Positions 24,650 through 31,744 of a stretch of 64,000 bases of DNA are shown piece after piece. Location of the stretch: positions 15,081 through 79,080 of the forward strand of contig JAAETN010000394.1 in the NCBI GenBank assembly GCA_024228355.1, read 5' to 3'. Position 1 is the stretch's first letter. Each line of letters begins with the position of its first letter. Below the pieces are notes generated by a model. The model saw only the letters and a list, made by a program, of their open reading frames with translations, was not told the DNA's origin and did not search any database. A program made the translations under genes and the position numbers. The stretch comes from Maribacter sp. (GTDB lineage Bacteria > Bacteroidota > Bacteroidia > Flavobacteriales > Flavobacteriaceae).

Positions 24650-25879
24650 CTATTGTAACATGGCCTTGGCGCGCTTAACACCTTCAACCATTGCATCGAT
24701 TTCCTCTTTGGTATTATAAAAATTAAAACTGGCACGCACTGTACCCGGGATTTTATAGAAATCCATAATAGGTTGTGCACAATGATGCCCTGTACGGACG
24801 GCTATTCCGAGCTTATCCAAAATAGAACCAATATCATAGGGGTGAATACTTTCGATATTGAAGGAGATAACCGAAGTCTTGTTCTCAGAAGTCCCGTAAA
24901 TACGTAACCCTTCAATGGACAACAATTGTTCAGTGGCATACACCAACAGTTCGTTTTCATAAGCAGCTATTACATCAATGCCAATGGCATTCATATAATC
25001 AATAGCAGCACCAAAGGCGATTCCACCACAAATGTTGGGCGTACCCGCTTCAAATTTATGGGGTAAATCGGCGTAGGTCGTCTTTTCAAAGGTAACCTCA
25101 GCGATCATTTCGCCCCCACCCTGATAAGGTGGTAATTTATGTAACCATTCTTCTTTCCCATATAATATGCCAACGCCTGTAGGTCCACACATCTTATGCG
25201 CCGAAACCGTGTAGAAATCAACATCCAGTTCTTGAACATCAGCCTGAATATGCGGAGCGGCTTGGGCGCCATCAATTAATACAGCTGCACCAACATTGTG
25301 GGCAGCTTCGATTATTTCTTTGATAGGATTTACCGTTCCCAATGCATTTGATACATGATTGCAAAAAACCATTTTGGTTTTGTCGGATAATAACTTGCGG
25401 TATTCATCCATAATCAATTCTCCTTTCTCGCTCATTGGAATCACCTTTAACATGGCGCCTGTTCGTTCGCACAACATTTGCCAGGGAACTATATTTGAAT
25501 GGTGTTCCATGGCCGAAACGATTAACTCATCTCCTTTTTGTAATAAGGATGAAAAGCCATTAGCTACTAAATTGATACTATGGGTAGTCCCGGAAGTGAA
25601 AATTATCTCATGGGGTTTAGCAGCGTTAAAATGCCTTTGGATTTTTAATCTTGCCTGTTCATATTTATCCGTAGCTTCTTGGGAAAGGGTATGTACCCCT
25701 CGATGGATATTCGCATTGTAACTGCTATAGTAGTCAACAATAGCGTCAATAACCTGTTTGGGCGTTTGCGATGTGGCAGCATTGTCAAAATACACCAAAG
25801 GTTTACCATTGACCATACGGTCTAGAATGGGAAAATCTTTTCTAATTACAGCTACGTCCAAAGAAGAGGTATTGCTCAT
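24650..25879 (-). CDS. sufS: Cysteine desulfurase SufS
   Basis: YFDNAATSQ, SAHKMCGPTG (PLP Lys), EAGTP and RTGHHCA motifs. Confidence 0.95.
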   Translation of the reverse strand: MSNTSSLDVAVIRKDFPILDRMVNGKPLVYFDNAATSQTPKQVIDAIVDYYSSYNANIHRGVHTLSQEATDKYEQARLKIQRHFNAAKPHEIIFTSGTTHSINLVANGFSSLLQKGDELIVSAMEHHSNIVPWQMLCERTGAMLKVIPMSEKGELIMDEYRKLLSDKTKMVFCNHVSNALGTVNPIKEIIEAAHNVGAAVLIDGAQAAPHIQADVQELDVDFYTVSAHKMCGPTGVGILYGKEEWLHKLPPYQGGGEMIAEVTFEKTTYADLPHKFEAGTPNICGGIAFGAAIDYMNAIGIDVIAAYENELLVYATEQLLSIEGLRIYGTSENKTSVISFNIESIHPYDIGSILDKLGIAVRTGHHCAQPIMDFYKIPGTVRASFNFYNTKEEIDAMVEGVKRAKAMLQ

Positions 25880-25880
25880 A

Positions 25881-27197
25881 CTATAAATCGAATCCTAATC
25901 GAACACCTAATTTTTCAGCTATAAGTCTGTTTATTCTTGATTTTAGTACAGGAATACGCACGCTTTCCAAAACATTATTGGCAAAAGCGTACATTAACAG
26001 AGCTCTAGCTTCCTTTTTAGGGATACCACGGGATTGAAGATAGAAAAGAGCATCTTCATCCAATTGCCCTATGGTACAACCATGAGAACATTTTACATCG
26101 TCCGCAAAAATCTCCAATTGTGGTTTTGTATTGATGGTGGCCTTATCACTGACTAGGATATTGTTGTTCTGTTGAAAGGCATTGGTCTTTTGGGCAATTT
26201 TATCAACAATGATCTTTCCGTTGAATACCCCAGTGGAATTCTCACCATAGATTCCTTTGTAGTCCTGGTGGCTTTCACAATTTGGTTCAATATGATGTAC
26301 CAAAGTATGATGGTCTACATGCTGCTTATACCCCAAAATCGTAACCCCTTTCATTGTGGAATCTATATGTTCCCCGTTCTGATAGAAATTCAAATTATTC
26401 CTTGTCAATTTCCCACCAAAAGAAAAGGTATGCACCTTGACCACACTTTTACTTTTTTGATTGATGTAGGTATTATCGATCAAAGATGCGGTTTTGACAT
26501 CGTTTTGAACTTTATAATAATCTACAATGGCATTTTCAGCGGCAAAAATCTCAGTTACTGAATTCGTTAAAACCTCATTAGTAGTTAGGCTTTGATACCT
26601 TTCGATAATCTGTACCTCAGCATTCTCTTCAACAACTACCAAGCTTCTTGGTTGCAACATCAATGAAGCTTCATTACCGGTTGAGAAATGTAAAATTTCA
26701 ATCGGTTTTTTTGGCATTTTGTTCTTTGGGATATAGATGTAAGCGCCTTCCCTACTAAATGCGGTGTTCAAAGTCGTAAGGGATTCGTCCTTAGATGCTA
26801 TTTTATTGAAATAAACATCGATCACTTGCTTGTACATGGGTTTGGTAAGCGCGGCGCTCATCAAACAAATATCTACTCCGTCGTGCGTTGTTTCAGAAAA
26901 AAAAGAAGAATAGATTCCGTCAATAAAAACAATCTTATAGGATTCTATCTCATGCAGGAAGAATTTCTTTACATCTTTATATCCCAGAGCATTTACTTCC
27001 TTGGGGAATATGCTAAAATCTATCTTCTGAAGCCCTTTTAAGGAGGTATATTTCCAAGCTTCCTCTTTTTTAGTGGGAAACCCTTTTTCCTCAAAGTTCT
27101 TTATGGCCTCTGATCGAATATCATGCACAGGATGTTCAACATCGACATTGTTTTCAAATGCCATGAAAGAAGAAACCAGTTTGTCTTTTAAATCCAT
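25881..27197 (-). CDS. sufD: Fe-S assembly protein SufD
   Basis: GVFNGKI, PQLEIFADDVKCSHG and FYLQSRGI motifs. Confidence 0.95.
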   Translation of the reverse strand: MDLKDKLVSSFMAFENNVDVEHPVHDIRSEAIKNFEEKGFPTKKEEAWKYTSLKGLQKIDFSIFPKEVNALGYKDVKKFFLHEIESYKIVFIDGIYSSFFSETTHDGVDICLMSAALTKPMYKQVIDVYFNKIASKDESLTTLNTAFSREGAYIYIPKNKMPKKPIEILHFSTGNEASLMLQPRSLVVVEENAEVQIIERYQSLTTNEVLTNSVTEIFAAENAIVDYYKVQNDVKTASLIDNTYINQKSKSVVKVHTFSFGGKLTRNNLNFYQNGEHIDSTMKGVTILGYKQHVDHHTLVHHIEPNCESHQDYKGIYGENSTGVFNGKIIVDKIAQKTNAFQQNNNILVSDKATINTKPQLEIFADDVKCSHGCTIGQLDEDALFYLQSRGIPKKEARALLMYAFANNVLESVRIPVLKSRINRLIAEKLGVRLGFDL

Positions 27198-27208
27198 CTT
27201 CTGATACT

Positions 27209-27285
27209 TGTCATTCCTGCGAAGGCAGGAATCTCATTAATTCTATCTAATTTTTCTTTGGATTCCTGCCTTCGCAGGAATGACA
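27209..27285. repeat. REP/dRS3-like element: perfect 25-bp inverted repeat with a 27-bp spacer
   Basis: TGTCATTCCTGCGAAGGCAGGAATC (27209-27233) and its exact reverse complement (27261-27285); each arm is itself palindromic. Confidence 0.9.
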
Positions 27286-27294
27286 GGGCTTCGG

Positions 27295-28047
27295 CTACAC
27301 CGTAGCGCCATTTTTTATCCAATCGTATCCTTTATCCTCCAATTCGTGGGCCAATTCCTTATCCCCCGATTTTACAATCTTACCTTCATGCAAAACATGC
27401 ACAAAATCCGGGACTATATAATCCAACAATCTTTGATAATGGGTAATTACGATAACCGCATTATCCTTGCTTTTCAATTTATTCACCCCATTGGCGACAA
27501 TTCTTAACGCATCAATATCAAGTCCAGAATCAGTTTCATCCAATATTGCCAGCTTAGGTTCTAGCATAGCCAGTTGAAAAATCTCATTCCTCTTTTTCTC
27601 ACCTCCTGAAAAACCCTCATTCAAGGAACGGGATAAGAATTTGCGATCTATATCCAATAATTCGGCCTTTTCGCGTATCAATTTCAACATTTGATTTGCT
27701 GGCATATCCTCTAAACCTTTAGCCTTTCGAGTTTCGTTAATTGCAGTCCTAATAAAGTTGGTTACCGAAACACCCGGGATTTCGACAGGGTACTGGAAAG
27801 AAAGGAAAATTCCTTTATGTGCTCTTTCTTCTGGTGCTTGATCTTCTAAATCTTCACCATCTAATACAACGCTCCCTTCGGTAATCTCATATTCTTCCTT
27901 ACCTGCTATCACAGCGGCCAGGGTACTCTTACCAGACCCGTTTGGTCCCATAATCGCATGAACTTCACCTGCGTTTACTTCTAGATTAATCCCATTTAGG
28001 ATCTCGTTATCGTCAATACCTGCATGCAGGTTGTTAATTTTTAACAT
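27295..28047 (-). CDS. sufC: Fe-S assembly ATPase SufC
   Basis: GPNGSGKST, FQYPVEIPGV, GFSGGEKKRNE and LDETDSGLDID motifs; ATG at 28047. Confidence 0.96.
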   Translation of the reverse strand: MLKINNLHAGIDDNEILNGINLEVNAGEVHAIMGPNGSGKSTLAAVIAGKEEYEITEGSVVLDGEDLEDQAPEERAHKGIFLSFQYPVEIPGVSVTNFIRTAINETRKAKGLEDMPANQMLKLIREKAELLDIDRKFLSRSLNEGFSGGEKKRNEIFQLAMLEPKLAILDETDSGLDIDALRIVANGVNKLKSKDNAVIVITHYQRLLDYIVPDFVHVLHEGKIVKSGDKELAHELEDKGYDWIKNGATV

Positions 28048-28069
28048 CTTCAACTTTTTATTATAAATA

Positions 28070-29515
28070 TTATCCAACTGAGCCTTCCAAGCTTATTTCC
28101 AATAGTTTTTGGGCCTCTACAGCAAATTCCATAGGTAATTTGTTCAACACTTCCTTACTAAAACCATTTACAATCAAAGCAATAGCCTTTTCAGTTTCTA
28201 TTCCTCGCTGATTACAGTAAAAAATTTGGTCCTCTCCAATTTTACTGGTAGTTGCTTCGTGCTCTATTTGAGCTGTTTTGTTTTTTGCTTCGATATATGG
28301 GAATGTATGTGCACCACATTCATTCCCCATTAAAAGGGAATCACATTGTGAAAAATTCCTTGCATTCTTTGCCCGACTATTCACTTGTACCAATCCTCGA
28401 TAACTATTTTGTGATTTTCCTGCAGAAATACCTTTGGAAATAATCGTACTTCTTGTATTCTTACCCAAATGTACCATCTTGGTACCTGTATCGGCTTGTT
28501 GATAATTATTGGTTACGGCTATGGAATAGAACTCTCCAATTGAATTATCCCCTTTAAGAATGCAGGATGGGTATTTCCAGGTTACCGCTGACCCAGTTTC
28601 TACCTGAGTCCAAGATATTTTTGCGTTTTTCTCACAAATTCCTCTTTTAGTAACAAAATTGAAAACACCACCTTTTCCGTCCTTATCACCAGGAAACCAG
28701 TTTTGTACCGTTGAGTATTTTATTTCAGCGTCATCTAAGGCAATCAATTCAACCACAGCGGCGTGCAATTGATTTTCATCCCGCGAAGGTGCGGTACAAC
28801 CTTCCAAATAACTTACATAGCTTCCTTTGTCTGCAATAACAAGTGTTCTTTCAAACTGACCGGTTCCTGCTTGGTTAATTCTAAAATAAGTGGATAATTC
28901 CATTGGGCATCGTACTCCCTTTGGAATGTAACAGAATGATCCATCAGAGAATACGGCCGAGTTTAAGGCCGCATAAAAATTATCTTTTTGGGGAACTACA
29001 GAACCAATATATTTCTTGACAAGTTCAGGATGTTCCTTGATAGCCTCCGAAATAGAACAAAATATAATTCCTTTTTCGGCCAGCGTCTTTTTAAAAGTAG
29101 TAGCAACAGAAACGGAGTCCATAACAATATCAACGGCGACTCCGGCCAATTTTTTTTGCTCGTCCAAAGAAATACCTAATTTTTTGAAAGTATCGAGCAA
29201 TTCTGGATCTACCTCATCCAAACTGTTGTATTTGGGTTTGCTGTTAGGTGCAGAATAATACGAAATAGCCTGAAAATCCGGTTTTTGATAGGTAACGTTG
29301 GCCCATTCTGGCTCTTCCATTTTCTTCCAAACCTTAAAAGCCTCCAAACGCCATTCGGTCATCCAACTGGGCTCGTCTTTCTTTTTGGAAATAGCTACGA
29401 CGATATCCTCGTTTAATCCCACTGGTAGGGTATCGGATTCAATATCGGTATAGAAACCATATTCATATTCCTTGGTTTCGAGCTCTTTCTTTAATTCCTC
29501 TTCGGTATATGCCAT
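28070..29515 (-). CDS. sufB: Fe-S scaffold SufB
   Basis: [27 protein letters not shown] and EHEATTSKI motifs. Confidence 0.97.
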
Positions 29516-29524
29516 TTATTCCTT

Positions 29525-29854
29525 TTATAATGAAAAACTCTCACCACACCCACAGGTGCGCTGTGCATTGGGATTATTGAATACAAATCCTTTTCCGTTC
29601 AACCCTCCTGAATATTCCAAAACCGTTCCTACGAGATATAAAAAACTTTTCTTATCAACTAAAATACGAACTGCGTTATCCTCAAAAACTTTGTCGGATT
29701 CATTGATTTTGTTATCAAAATTCAATTCATATGACAATCCACTGCATCCTCCGCTCTTAACGCCAACCCGAACATAGTCCTTCGTAGCATCAAAGCCTTC
29801 CTCAATCATAAGGCTGATCACCCTTTGTTTTGCCTTTTCTGAAACTTGTATCAT
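29525..29854 (-). CDS. sufA: A-type Fe-S carrier (HesB/IscA/SufA)
   Basis: GGCSGLSY and NPNA..TCGCGESF motifs. Confidence 0.9.
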   Translation of the reverse strand: MIQVSEKAKQRVISLMIEEGFDATKDYVRVGVKSGGCSGLSYELNFDNKINESDKVFEDNAVRILVDKKSFLYLVGTVLEYSGGLNGKGFVFNNPNAQRTCGCGESFSL

Positions 29855-30103: not shown

Positions 30104-31744
30104 CTAGTAAAGCTCTTCATAGTATTGTGACGCCATTCTCTTGGAAGTAAATTCGGGCACGACATCATCGATACTATTAAAAACTATTTGTTGCCATTTT
30201 TCTGGATTTTCATAATAAGCTGGCAAAACATCGTTTTCGAGTATGTCATACAAATTATCACTATCTATTTTGTCCTGATCCCAAGTTGGCAAGTTGTGAT
30301 CTATTTCAGGGAAAATAAAAGAATTTTCGCCGTCTTTGGCGAATTCGGGTATCCACCCATCATTGGTCGAAACATTCACTGAACCGTTCATAGCCGCAGT
30401 CATACCACTCGTACCTGATGCTTCCCTGGTAATTCTGGGCGTATTGAGCCAAATGTCGGAACCTTCCTTTAGTTTTCGAGACAACTCAATTTCATAGCCA
30501 ATCAACACAGCTAGGTTGTGTTTGTATTTAGTATAATTCACTAAATGGTTAAAAATGTCTATCGCATAATAATCATGGGGATAAGGTTTGCCGGCCCAAA
30601 TGATTTGCACAGGGTATTTTTTATTGTTGATTAATCTTTCGAACCTTTCCAAATCATAAAGCAACAAATCAGCTCTCTTATAACCTGCAAAACGCCTAGC
30701 CCAGACGATTGTCAAAACATTGGGGTCGAAAAGCTTTTCAGTTTGGTTCAATACTTCATCGAACAACTCTTTTTTAAGTTCGTTTTTTCTTTGTCTGTAC
30801 ATTTTGGCATCCTTCTTTTCATGGGCTGTTTCGACCACTGGGTCCTGCCAAAAATTCTGGTTTTGAGCATTGGTAATCGGAATTATTTTGCTAACCCCAT
30901 TGTAATCTTTCCACATGTTCCGGGATACCTTGGAATGCAATTTGGAAACGGCATTTGCTTTTTTTGAAAGTCTTAGGGCAGATACTGTATAATTGATCAT
31001 TCCACCATTGACCATCTCATTCGCCAATTCTTCGTCTGAAAAATATCTACCGAAAAAGCCACAACGGTTCAAATGGCGTCCATCTCTCTCCTCATTCCCA
31101 GCTTTTTCGGGTGTGTGTGTAGTAAATACCATTTGGTCTTTTTTTACACCTTTATCCCTTAGATAATAAAAGGCGGGTAAGGCATGTCCCTCATTCAAAT
31201 GATATACATCCGCCCCTCCCAAGGCCTCAACCACTTTGGCGCCGCCAATACCCAAAACTATACTCTGGGAAATACGGGTCAAATGATTGGCATCGTACAG
31301 ATGATGGGTAATGGTTTTGGACAGATAGTCGTTTCCTTCAACATCGGTAGTCAACAGGTAAATGGGTACTGTTCCAAATATTTCAGGCTTTAAAACCATT
31401 GCACGAACTTTTACCGCAGGATTATCATGCAGTTTTATCTCTACCTCAATTCCTGAATCTTCCAAAAAATTATAGGTTTTTTCAATAAAATTGGTTTTGA
31501 GGGTTTGGTCTCCGTTCCTATCTTGATCGTAGTAGCCATATTTCCAAAGTATGCCGATCCCAATCATATTTTGTTTATTTTCAAAAGCCGATCGCATATG
31601 CGATCCAGCCAAAAAACCGAGACCTCCCGAATATATTTTAAGGGCTTGGTGAATACCGAATTCCATACTGAAATAAGCTACCTTCTTTTCGAATTCTTTT
31701 ACAGGGGTATACGGTAAGTGCCATTTATTGTATTCTGATATCAT
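30104..31744 (-). CDS. glgP: Short alpha-glucan phosphorylase (GT35/GlgP-like) with Thr at the PLP-Lys position
   Basis: YFSMEFG, YSGGLGFLAG, HLNEGH, FTTHTP, WARRFAGYKR and EASGTSGMT motifs. Confidence 0.85.
   Translation of the reverse strand: MISEYNKWHLPYTPVKEFEKKVAYFSMEFGIHQALKIYSGGLGFLAGSHMRSAFENKQNMIGIGILWKYGYYDQDRNGDQTLKTNFIEKTYNFLEDSGIEVEIKLHDNPAVKVRAMVLKPEIFGTVPIYLLTTDVEGNDYLSKTITHHLYDANHLTRISQSIVLGIGGAKVVEALGGADVYHLNEGHALPAFYYLRDKGVKKDQMVFTTHTPEKAGNEERDGRHLNRCGFFGRYFSDEELANEMVNGGMINYTVSALRLSKKANAVSKLHSKVSRNMWKDYNGVSKIIPITNAQNQNFWQDPVVETAHEKKDAKMYRQRKNELKKELFDEVLNQTEKLFDPNVLTIVWARRFAGYKRADLLLYDLERFERLINNKKYPVQIIWAGKPYPHDYYAIDIFNHLVNYTKYKHNLAVLIGYEIELSRKLKEGSDIWLNTPRITREASGTSGMTAAMNGSVNVSTNDGWIPEFAKDGENSFIFPEIDHNLPTWDQDKIDSDNLYDILENDVLPAYYENPEKWQQIVFNSIDDVVPEFTSKRMASQYYEELY

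What the first reader, a model, noticed from the sequence alone, without database searches (positions are those of the whole stretch)
30104..31744. Short, orphan glucan phosphorylase with Thr in place of the PLP Schiff-base lysine
Seen: the signature reads EASGTSGM-T-AAMNG (codon ACT at 30400-30398), where GT35 phosphorylases have EASGT(S/G)(G/N)M-K. The protein is only 546 aa and no glgA, glgB, glgC or malQ gene is nearby. Known: characterised glycogen and maltodextrin phosphorylases (about 800 aa) bind PLP covalently through this Lys and use its phosphate in catalysis. The other motifs (GGLG, NEGH, TTHT, RRFAGYKR) are intact, so the gene does not look decayed. Inference: a subfamily using non-covalent PLP or no PLP, or with a different glycosyl-transfer reaction.
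Basis: partly seen in the sequence, partly recalled or inferred. Interest (0 to 1): 0.65.

Follow-up and report, generated by a model that had tools for sequence, protein, structure and literature searches.

The report
Lysine-less (cofactor-free type) glycogen phosphorylase
This gene encodes a short glycogen phosphorylase that lacks the lysine normally anchoring the vitamin-B6 cofactor; the change is real and conserved, but papers from 2025-2026 already describe this lysine-less branch and show that an archaeal lysine-less phosphorylase works without the cofactor, so this is a further example and not a new kind.

Summary
ORF 30104-31744 (-) encodes 546 aa and reads EASGTSGM-T449-AAMNG, with codon ACT at 30400-30398, two base changes from any Lys codon. 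It is not a strain error. None of the 120 closest homologues has Lys. All Lys-less relatives form one deep clade (support 0.999) found in Bacteroidota, Akkermansia, Campylobacterota, Gastranaerophilales and CPR bacteria. The short length is normal for this branch; its Lys-bearing sister proteins are equally short. The fold matches glycogen phosphorylase (pLDDT 94; TM 0.89 to the Segatella copri enzyme), and the substrate- and phosphate-binding residues are kept.

"Orphan" is true only locally. This genome has glgB, a GH31 gene and a glgA-like gene on other contigs. In close relatives the ortholog sits inside an alpha-glucan gene cluster.

The phenomenon is published. Methanococcus maripaludis GP (Thr for Lys) is active and PLP-free (FEBS J 2025). 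A 2026 Nat Commun phylogeny lists Flavobacteria among the Lys-less taxa.

Most likely this is a PLP-independent alpha-1,4-glucan phosphorylase (confidence 0.7; activity untested for any bacterial member).

One point neither paper I read mentions: a basic residue, Lys426 here, is present in every Lys-less protein and in no Lys-bearing one.

The parts
30104..31744 (-). Gene for a 546-aa GT35 / TIGR02094-type alpha-glucan phosphorylase homologue of the Lys-less branch
   Evidence: ORF. TIGR02094 scores 421 bits against a cut-off of 191.7, and PF00343 scores 70 bits. The AF2 model has pLDDT 94.3. The best Foldseek match is S. copri GP 9l6i, TMq 0.89.
30398..30400 (-). Thr449 codon (ACT) at the position of the PLP Schiff-base lysine (rabbit Lys680, S. 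copri GP Lys609)
   Evidence: T, S, A or G occupies this position in all 24 non-Lys sequences of that alignment (23 homologues plus the query), against K in 121 of 121 Lys-bearing sequences, one of which (P0223) nests inside the Lys-less clade.
30467..30469 (-). Lys426 codon (AAG): the basic residue found only in the Lys-less clade
   Evidence: K at 426 in 24/24 and 68/68 Lys-less sequences; K in 108 and R in 3 of 111. It is never K in Lys449-bearing sequences (0/121, 0/7, 0/1), which have V, T, I or L there.
30383..30424 (-). EASGTSGMTAAMNG motif (residues 441-454); Glu441, Ser443, Gly444 and Thr445 are conserved
   Evidence: E441, A442, S443, G444, T445, S446, G447 and M448 are invariant in the 75-sequence alignment A2.
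30674..30706 (-). VWARRFAGYKR (347-357). Arg350, Arg351 and Lys356 correspond to S. copri GP R507, R508 and K513 (phosphate and substrate contacts). Val347 and Trp348 replace the Gly-Phe of Lys-bearing relatives.
   Evidence: Alignment; residue roles from PMC12912991; conservation; clade signature.
31109..31126 (-). FTTHTP (207-212). His210 corresponds to S. copri GP His316, a substrate contact.
   Evidence: alignment; PMC12912991; H210 invariant in A2.
31184..31195 (-). NEGH (184-187)
   Evidence: Invariant in A2. His187 is replaced by Tyr or Phe in some deep-branch members.
31616..31627 (-). GGLG (40-43) glucose-1-phosphate / phosphate loop
   Evidence: G40, G41, L42 and G43 invariant in A2.
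31376..31384 (-). Three-residue insertion (E121-I122-F123) specific to the Lys-less clade
   Evidence: Absent in 91-94% of Lys-bearing relatives; Phe123 present in 92% of Lys-less ones.

Best explanation
The gene encodes an alpha-1,4-glucan (glycogen) phosphorylase of the roughly 550-aa, Lys-less branch of the GP1 / TIGR02094 family. It most likely removes glucose from the non-reducing ends of the cell's own branched alpha-glucan as glucose-1-phosphate, and does so without pyridoxal phosphate. Shown here: GT35 family membership and fold; retention of the glucosyl- and phosphate-binding residues; loss of the Schiff-base Lys as an old, clade-wide trait that comes with a fixed set of other changes around the cofactor site (D48S, E161S, H295N, GF347-348VW, A387P, V426K, W465I, GW475-476SF); genomic linkage of orthologs to alpha-glucan genes; and the absence of any other GT35 gene in this genome. 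Inferred from published work on Methanococcus maripaludis GP: catalysis goes on without PLP, and a second orthophosphate may sit where the PLP 5'-phosphate would be and act as the proton shuttle. My own inference: Lys426, in the helix preceding the motif helix, replaces a buried hydrophobic residue and reaches into the emptied cofactor pocket. There it would fill the space or help hold the second phosphate.
For: Family and fold: TIGR02094 421 bits; AF2 pLDDT 94.3 and pTM 0.93. All 50 best PDB fold matches are glycogen or maltodextrin phosphorylases, led by S. copri GP at TMq 0.89.

Catalytic residues kept: H210, R350, R351 and K356 correspond to S. copri GP H316, R507, R508 and K513 (alignment; PMC12912991). 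They are invariant or nearly so, as are G40-G43, N292, E441 and T445.

Strong purifying selection: 78-88% identity in the 120 best database clusters, whose named members span several Flavobacteriaceae genera.

Clade feature: none of the 120 closest homologues has K. All 24 Lys-less sequences fall in one clade of 25 with support 0.999. The short sister proteins that keep K have the canonical signature.

Context: in the Flavobacteriaceae loci L017 and L018 (79-81% identical), the ortholog lies between a glgB-GH31 pair and, in L017, a GH13 gene (L018 ends just after the ortholog), next to glgE-like or maltokinase genes. In a sample of 61 genomes of the window's own family (one per genus; the closest named homologues are Flavobacteriaceae), all 6 with the Lys-less type also have glgB, and none has a canonical GT35. 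This genome has no other GT35 gene.

Published biochemistry: MmGP (Thr for Lys) releases G1P from glycogen and contains no PLP by UV, fluorescence, cyanohydrin assay and mass spectrometry. PMC13324651 places Flavobacteria, Chitinophagia, Cytophagia, Akkermansia and Gastranaerophilales in the Lys-less subclade together with archaeal sequences.
Against: No bacterial Lys-less member has been assayed. I could not obtain a Methanococcales sequence, so I did not test whether MmGP belongs to this clade or lost its Lys independently; PMC13324651 says only that 'Archaea' fall in the subclade. About 30 of the 40 glgB-positive genomes of the family sampled have no GT35 gene at all, and a genome of the same genus lacks this gene, so the enzyme is dispensable for alpha-glucan metabolism. 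His187 of NEGH is not conserved in deep-branch members. MmGP is strongly inhibited by ADP-glucose and UDP-glucose, which leaves room for nucleotide-sugar binding. No model coordinates were available, so the position of Lys426 relative to the old PLP site is geometric reasoning and was not measured.
Confidence: 0.7

Rival explanations
1. The enzyme still uses PLP. The cofactor is either held non-covalently in a remodelled pocket or bound as a Schiff base to the relocated Lys426.
For: The aldimine is not needed for phosphorylase chemistry; the reduced enzyme stays active (cited in 10.1101/2024.09.29.615707). The residues that contact the PLP 5'-phosphate region (R350, K356, T445, S446) are conserved. 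A new, strictly coupled Lys appears at 426.
Against: MmGP contains no PLP by four methods, and its pyridoxal pocket is modelled as filled by bulky side chains. Here several pocket-lining positions change from small to larger residues (G347V, F348W, A387P, G475S), which fits a filled pocket. Position 449 drifts among T, S, A and G, so it has no specific cofactor role.
Confidence: 0.1
2. The clade has changed reaction. It would be a Leloir-type glucosyltransferase using ADP- or UDP-glucose, with the nucleotide in the old PLP site. Alternatively it would act on maltose-1-phosphate or another glucosyl phosphate.
For: GT35 shares the GT-B fold and the Arg/Lys/Glu active-site motifs with GT5 and GT3 synthases. 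The protein gives a weak GlgA match (TIGR02095, 47.5 bits). MmGP binds ADP-glucose and UDP-glucose tightly (IC50 0.045 and 0.19 mM, shifted by phosphate). Some orthologs sit next to glgE-like and maltokinase genes.
Against: MmGP is a working phosphorylase with ordinary kinetics. The GlgA score is far below the cut-off of 328. All top fold matches are phosphorylases. This genome has a separate full-length glgA-like gene and no glgE or maltokinase.
Confidence: 0.1
3. It is a catalytically dead pseudoenzyme that is kept as a glucan-binding or regulatory protein.
For: It has lost a residue long considered essential. The gene is patchily distributed and dispensable within the family sampled.
Against: The phosphate- and glucosyl-binding residues are invariant across a clade whose members are as little as 31-36% identical to this protein. 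A pseudoenzyme would not be expected to keep them. MmGP is active.
Confidence: 0.05
4. The Thr is a sequencing error or a recent inactivating mutation private to this strain.
For: None was found.
Against: 102 of the 120 closest homologues have the same Thr and none has Lys. ACT is two substitutions from a Lys codon. The frame is intact.
Confidence: 0.01

Closest known systems
Methanococcus maripaludis glycogen phosphorylase MmGP (Gonzalez-Ordenes et al., bioRxiv 10.1101/2024.09.29.615707; FEBS J 2025, doi 10.1111/febs.70182)
   Same: A short (about 60 kDa) GT35 phosphorylase with Thr in place of the PLP lysine in the EASGT..M-K motif. The other active-site motifs are kept.
   Different: MmGP is archaeal and biochemically characterised: active on glycogen, PLP-free, monomeric, with many effectors. 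The protein here is bacterial (closest named homologues are Flavobacteriaceae such as Maribacter) and untested. I could not test whether MmGP shares this clade and the Lys426 signature.
Lys-less subclade of 'GP1 clade VIII' (about 550 aa) described in Nat Commun 2026, PMC13324651
   Same: Same length class, same substitution (Thr, Gly or Ala for Lys) and same taxa: Flavobacteria, Chitinophagia, Cytophagia, Akkermansia, Gastranaerophilales. My own tree and locus survey recover the same group.
   Different: That paper notes only the motif change. It does not report the co-varying signature (including Lys426), the genomic context, or members from Campylobacterota and CPR bacteria.
Segatella copri glycogen phosphorylase ScGP (PDB 9l6i, 20yr; PNAS 2026, PMC12912991)
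   Same: Closest solved structure: phmmer E = 1.4e-73, Foldseek TMq 0.89. It belongs to the same GP1 / TIGR02094 family, and the substrate residues H316, R507, R508 and K513 are conserved here.
   Different: ScGP is 852 aa with an N-terminal DUF3417 region and a C-terminal beta-sheet domain, forms a pentamer, and carries PLP on Lys609. This protein lacks those extra domains and has Thr at that position.
Classical GT35 phosphorylases (rabbit muscle GP, E. coli MalP and GlgP; TIGR02093)
   Same: GT-B fold and the GGLG, Arg/Lys and EASGT motifs.
   Different: Only 16-19% identity in fold alignments. They are about 800 aa and dimeric, with regulatory N-terminal regions, and PLP is bound covalently to Lys680.

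Membership tests
GT35 / TIGR02094 alpha-glucan family phosphorylase (GP1) | Profile score above the curated cut-off | tested here: met
   TIGR02094 421.1 bits against a cut-off of 191.7; PF00343 70 bits against 27.
GT35 / TIGR02094 alpha-glucan family phosphorylase (GP1) | GT-B phosphorylase fold | tested here: met
   AF2 pLDDT 94.3. Foldseek: S. copri GP TMq 0.89, E = 1.7e-46; all top 50 matches are phosphorylases.
GT35 / TIGR02094 alpha-glucan family phosphorylase (GP1) | Substrate and phosphate-binding residues (ScGP H316, R507, R508, K513; GGLG loop; Glu of EASG) | tested here: met
   H210, R350, R351, K356, G40-G43 and E441 are present and conserved.
GT35 / TIGR02094 alpha-glucan family phosphorylase (GP1) | Schiff-base lysine for PLP in EASGT..M-K | tested here: not met
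   Thr449, codon ACT at 30400-30398.
Lys-less GP1 clade VIII subclade (PMC13324651) | About 550 aa, with Lys replaced by Thr, Ser, Ala or Gly | tested here: met
   546 aa with Thr449. The homologues have T, S, A or G.
Lys-less GP1 clade VIII subclade (PMC13324651) | Groups with the Lys-less proteins of other lineages, apart from Lys-bearing short GPs | tested here: met
   In the FastTree tree, all 24 Lys-less sequences (the query plus unnamed database representatives) fall in one clade of 25 with support 0.999, and a Lys-bearing sister group of 7 joins at support 1.0. Separately, the tblastn and motif survey of genome contigs finds Lys-less homologues in Bacteroidota, Akkermansia/Verrucomicrobiota, Gastranaerophilales and Campylobacterota. 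The two sequence sets were not put in one tree.
PLP-independent glycogen phosphorylase (MmGP type) | Same clade as the characterised enzyme MmGP | not testable with these tools
   No Methanococcales sequence could be fetched: none was among the best 80 loci, 150 representatives or 240 database hits. PMC13324651 states only that archaeal sequences lie in the subclade.
PLP-independent glycogen phosphorylase (MmGP type) | Phosphorolysis of glycogen to G1P with no bound PLP | not testable with these tools
   This needs a purified protein. It has been shown only for MmGP.
GT5 glycogen synthase (GlgA, TIGR02095) | Profile score above the curated cut-off | tested here: not met
   47.5 bits against a cut-off of 328.45. 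A separate 513-aa GlgA-like gene scores 261 bits elsewhere in the genome.

The most novel reading that the evidence does not exclude
Lys426 is the residue that makes cofactor-free catalysis possible. When the Schiff-base Lys449 was lost, a buried hydrophobic residue one helix away became Lys (rarely Arg). Its ammonium group now occupies the emptied PLP pocket and holds a second orthophosphate, or itself stands in for the acid-base role of the PLP 5'-phosphate. The pair behaves as a coupled switch. A basic residue at 426 occurs in all Lys-less sequences examined and in no Lys449 sequence. The one small lineage inside the clade that has Lys449 again (P0223, P0338) has Gln at 426. Neither published paper that I read mentions this residue.
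Probability: 0.3. Interest if true: 0.5.

Novelty: new member of a known kind. Interest (0 to 1): 0.28.

Why it matters
Glycogen phosphorylase is the textbook case of a PLP enzyme that uses the cofactor's phosphate, and the Lys was long thought universal. The exception is now documented. An archaeal enzyme works without PLP, and a 2026 phylogeny lists Flavobacteria among the Lys-less taxa. This gene adds a well-conserved marine Bacteroidota example, apparently the organism's only GT35 enzyme. The Lys-less form is widespread and looks like the sole phosphorylase where it occurs. A strictly coupled second-site change (Lys426) gives a concrete mutagenesis target for working out how catalysis proceeds without PLP. 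No bacterial member has been assayed, so a simple expression experiment would extend the published result to bacteria.

Tried and rejected
- A single-sequence AF2 run gave an unusable model (pLDDT 31.5). I repeated it with a 75-sequence alignment.
- Model coordinates are not exposed to the Python box. I therefore could not measure distances from Lys426 to Thr449 or to the phosphate site.
- I tried three ways to obtain a Methanococcales sequence to place MmGP in the tree, and all failed. Cluster look-up of deep-branch representatives gave no organism names. A profile search with deep-branch members returned CPR bacteria and Gastranaerophilaceae but no archaea among the named hits. The preprint text holds no sequence.
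- Literature searches on 'alpha-glucan family phosphorylase', 'DUF3417' and the marine alpha-glucan paper gave nothing on the missing Lys.
- The sigma-70 promoter and terminator scan was no better than shuffled sequence, and Bacteroidota promoters differ in any case.
- Sequencing error or pseudogene: rejected.
- GlgA-type synthase: rejected as a family assignment.
- The short length as a sign of truncation: rejected (PMC13324651).
Full report
**Observation.** The ORF at window 30104..31744 on the minus strand encodes 546 aa. Residues 441-454 read EASGTSGMTAAMNG, and Thr449 is encoded by ACT at 30400-30398. ACT is two substitutions away from AAA or AAG. HMMER alignments to solved structures put Thr449 opposite the cofactor lysine. 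The Segatella copri enzyme reads EASGTSGEK there, and its Lys609 carries PLP according to PMC12912991. A classical GP reads EASGTGNMK. GGLG (40-43), NEGH (184-187), FTTHTP (207-212) and RRFAGYKR (350-357) are all present.

**Family and fold.** The protein scores 421 bits on TIGR02094 (alpha-glucan family phosphorylase, cut-off 191.7) and 70 bits on PF00343. Classical GT35 models and GlgA models score far below their cut-offs. A single-sequence AF2 run failed. With a 75-sequence alignment the model reached pLDDT 94.3 and pTM 0.93. Foldseek against the PDB returns only glycogen or maltodextrin phosphorylases among the top 50 matches. The best is S. copri GP (9l6i and 20yr, TMq 0.89, 29% identity). 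PMC12912991 names H316, R507, R508 and K513 as the residues of that enzyme that contact substrate or product. Through the alignment these correspond to H210, R350, R351 and K356 here. All four are invariant or nearly invariant in the family alignment.

**A clade feature, not a private change.** None of the 120 closest database proteins (78-88% identical) has Lys. The named ones are Maribacter, Gaetbulibacter, Lutibacter, Aureibaculum and Seonamhaeicola. 102 have T, 7 have A and 3 have S in the motif with AAMNG, 5 more have T in a TASMNG variant, and 3 did not match the pattern. I searched 1.84 billion cluster representatives and aligned 139 full-length hits with the query and five of the close homologues. 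In that alignment 121 sequences have K and 24 have S, T, G or A. In a FastTree tree all 24 fall in one clade of 25 with support 0.999. The sister group consists of seven equally short (524-553 aa) proteins that keep the Lys. The short length therefore belongs to the wider branch and has nothing to do with the loss of Lys.

The best 80 come from:
- Flavobacteriaceae, Chryseobacterium, Chitinophagaceae, Saprospiraceae, Cytophagales and Sphingobacteriales;
- Akkermansia and other Verrucomicrobiota;
- Campylobacterota;
- Gastranaerophilales, plus a few other phyla.

A profile of the deep-branch members also recovers CPR (Patescibacteria) proteins.

**A fixed set of accompanying changes.** I compared the Lys-less and Lys-bearing groups column by column. 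The table gives the residue in this protein; at some positions other clade members differ.

| Position in this protein | Lys-bearing group | This protein / Lys-less clade |
|---|---|---|
| 48 | Asp (99%) | Ser |
| 51 | Lys | Arg |
| 161 | Glu (96%) | Ser |
| 295 | His | Asn |
| 347-348 | Gly-Phe | Val-Trp |
| 387 | Ala | Pro |
| 394 | Gly | Ala here, Met in many others |
| 465 | Trp | Ile here, Met in many others |
| 475-476 | Gly-Trp | Ser-Phe |
| 121-123 | absent | three-residue insertion (E-I-F) |
| 426 | Val, Thr, Ile or Leu | Lys |

The change at 426 is the sharpest.
- Lys-less sequences: Lys426 is present in 24 of 24, and in 68 of 68 in a second alignment. In a third set of 111 it is Lys in 108 and Arg in 3.
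- Lys449 sequences: Lys426 is absent from all (0 of 121, 0 of 7, 0 of 1).
- One small lineage inside the clade (P0223, P0338) has Lys at 449 again, together with a two-residue deletion, and carries Gln at 426. This gives a second evolutionary event pointing the same way.

Position 426 lies near the end of the helix (419-428) that precedes the strand and loop leading into the motif helix (445-452). A hydrophobic residue there in Lys-bearing proteins suggests that the side chain is buried. A Lys at that spot would need a cavity, and the vacated cofactor pocket is the obvious candidate. It remains an inference.

**Genomic setting.** Locally the gene stands alone.
- Downstream: the suf operon (iscA/sufA-like, sufB, sufC, sufD, sufS).
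- Upstream: an SBBP-repeat lipoprotein, a choice-of-anchor B protein and a large heme-binding-type protein.

Elsewhere, the same genome (807 contigs, 99.96% complete) has:
- no other GT35 gene;
- a glgB split across two contig ends, lying next to a 799-aa GH31-like gene;
- a 513-aa GlgA-like gene between the enolase and citrate synthase genes, and a 269-aa GT5 fragment beside panC;
- no glgC and no malQ.

In two Flavobacteriaceae loci whose ortholog is 79-81% identical (L017, L018), the gene order is glgE-like or maltokinase, glgB, GH31, this phosphorylase and, in L017, a GH13 gene; L018 ends just after the ortholog. This genome has homologues of the glgB, GH31 and GH13 genes but not of glgE or maltokinase.

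I also sampled 61 genomes of the window's own family, one per genus (the closest named homologues are Flavobacteriaceae).
- Six carry the short Lys-less type. All six also have glgB, and none has a canonical GT35.
- Three carry long canonical TIGR02094 proteins, and one carries a classical GT35.
- Forty have glgB.
- A complete genome of the same genus lacks the gene.

The gene is thus an accessory part of alpha-glucan metabolism, and where it occurs it seems to be the only phosphorylase. With six genomes this pattern is only suggestive.

**What is already published.** Before consulting earlier notes, my reading was a real clade-wide loss with the cofactor question open. Notes from this scan pointed to a paper, which I then read.
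- Gonzalez-Ordenes et al. (bioRxiv 10.1101/2024.09.29.615707; cited in PMC13324651 as FEBS J 2025) report that Methanococcales GPs have Thr, sometimes Ser, for the Lys. Recombinant M. maripaludis GP is an active glycogen phosphorylase, a monomer of about 60 kDa, with Km for phosphate of 0.74 mM.
- They find no PLP by absorbance, fluorescence, cyanohydrin assay or mass spectrometry. They propose that a second orthophosphate takes the place of the PLP 5'-phosphate, with the pyridoxal pocket filled by bulky side chains.
- The phylogeny section of PMC13324651 (Nat Commun 2026) describes a 'GP1 clade VIII' of about 550 residues. One of its subclades holds FCB-group bacteria plus Melainabacteria, Archaea and Verrucomicrobiota. 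The section states that the Lys is replaced by Thr, Gly or Ala in Flavobacteria, Chitinophagia, Cytophagia, Akkermansia and Gastranaerophilales, and cites the archaeal enzyme as evidence that the Lys is dispensable.

My tree and taxon list agree with that description. The central claim of the finding is therefore in the literature.

**Most likely function.** I think this is a PLP-independent alpha-1,4-glucan phosphorylase that degrades the cell's own branched alpha-glucan to glucose-1-phosphate (confidence about 0.7). The rivals are as follows.
- PLP still bound non-covalently or to Lys426 (about 0.1). The conserved phosphate-site residues favour it. The PLP-free archaeal enzyme, the small-to-large changes lining the pocket, and the drift among T, S, A and G at 449 count against it.
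- A changed reaction using a nucleotide sugar or maltose-1-phosphate (about 0.1). The tight inhibition of MmGP by ADP- and UDP-glucose and the glgE neighbours in some genomes favour it. MmGP's ordinary phosphorylase activity counts against it.
- A dead pseudoenzyme (about 0.05). The invariance of the catalytic residues across a very deep clade counts against it.
- Sequencing error or private mutation: refuted.

**Limits.** No bacterial member has been assayed. I could not obtain a Methanococcales sequence. So I did not test whether MmGP belongs to this clade, or whether it has the Lys426 signature. The functional transfer rests partly on the statement in PMC13324651. His187 of NEGH is replaced by Tyr or Phe in some deep-branch members, so not every member need share the same activity.

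**Verdict.** The finding is a new member of a known kind, and its interest is low to moderate. The residual novelty lies in the strictly coupled Lys426, which neither paper I read mentions, and in the lack of any biochemical data for bacterial members.

Noticed in passing
window 24650-29854 (-): A complete suf operon lies directly downstream of the phosphorylase gene, after a 250-bp gap: iscA/sufA-like (29525-29854), sufB (28070-29515), sufC (27295-28077), sufD (25881-27197) and sufS (24650-25879). There is no evident functional link to the phosphorylase.
   Followed up: partly
L017:9-9609 and L018:70-7644 (Flavobacteriaceae MAGs): The ortholog sits in an alpha-glucan cluster that includes a GlgE-like maltosyltransferase (L017) or a maltokinase-like gene (L018), followed by glgB, a GH31 gene, the phosphorylase and, in L017, a GH13 gene (L018 ends just after the phosphorylase). 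This suggests a GlgE-type pathway in some marine Flavobacteriaceae. The window's own genome lacks the glgE and maltokinase genes.
   Followed up: partly
P0223 and P0338 (metagenomic proteins inside the Lys-less clade): A small lineage reads EASGTSGMKA--NGA. Lys is back at position 449, there is a two-residue deletion, and position 426 is Gln, not Lys. This is either a reversal or a retained ancestral state.
   Followed up: partly
own genome C423:5565-6374 (+), next to panC: A 269-aa protein consists only of the N-terminal half of a GT5 glycogen synthase. This matches the remark in PMC11046441 that Bacteroidetes keep a fragment of GlgA-GT5. Its function is unknown.
   Followed up: no
own genome C441:3709-5250 (-): A 513-aa GlgA-like gene (TIGR02095, 261 bits, below the cut-off of 328) lies between the enolase and citrate synthase genes, away from glgB. 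The genome has no glgC, so the sugar donor for alpha-glucan synthesis is unclear.
   Followed up: no
L035, L044 (labelled Sphingomonadales), L037 (Bosea), L034/L038/L057/L087 (Campylobacterota): L035 and L044 share their gene order around the phosphorylase with Chitinophagaceae loci (L047, L049, L054). They are probably Bacteroidota contigs mis-binned into Sphingomonadales MAGs. The Campylobacterota labels were not checked.
   Followed up: no
The genome search sample: About 30 of the 40 glgB-positive genomes of the family sampled have no GT35 phosphorylase of any kind. A complete genome of the window's own genus also lacks this gene. How these organisms degrade their alpha-glucan is open.
   Followed up: no
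one search hits P0284, P0329, P0335-P0337: Lys-less short phosphorylases also occur in CPR / Patescibacteria (Spechtbacteria, Niyogibacteria, Nealsonbacteria, Minisyncoccales). The published description of the subclade does not list these taxa.
   Followed up: no
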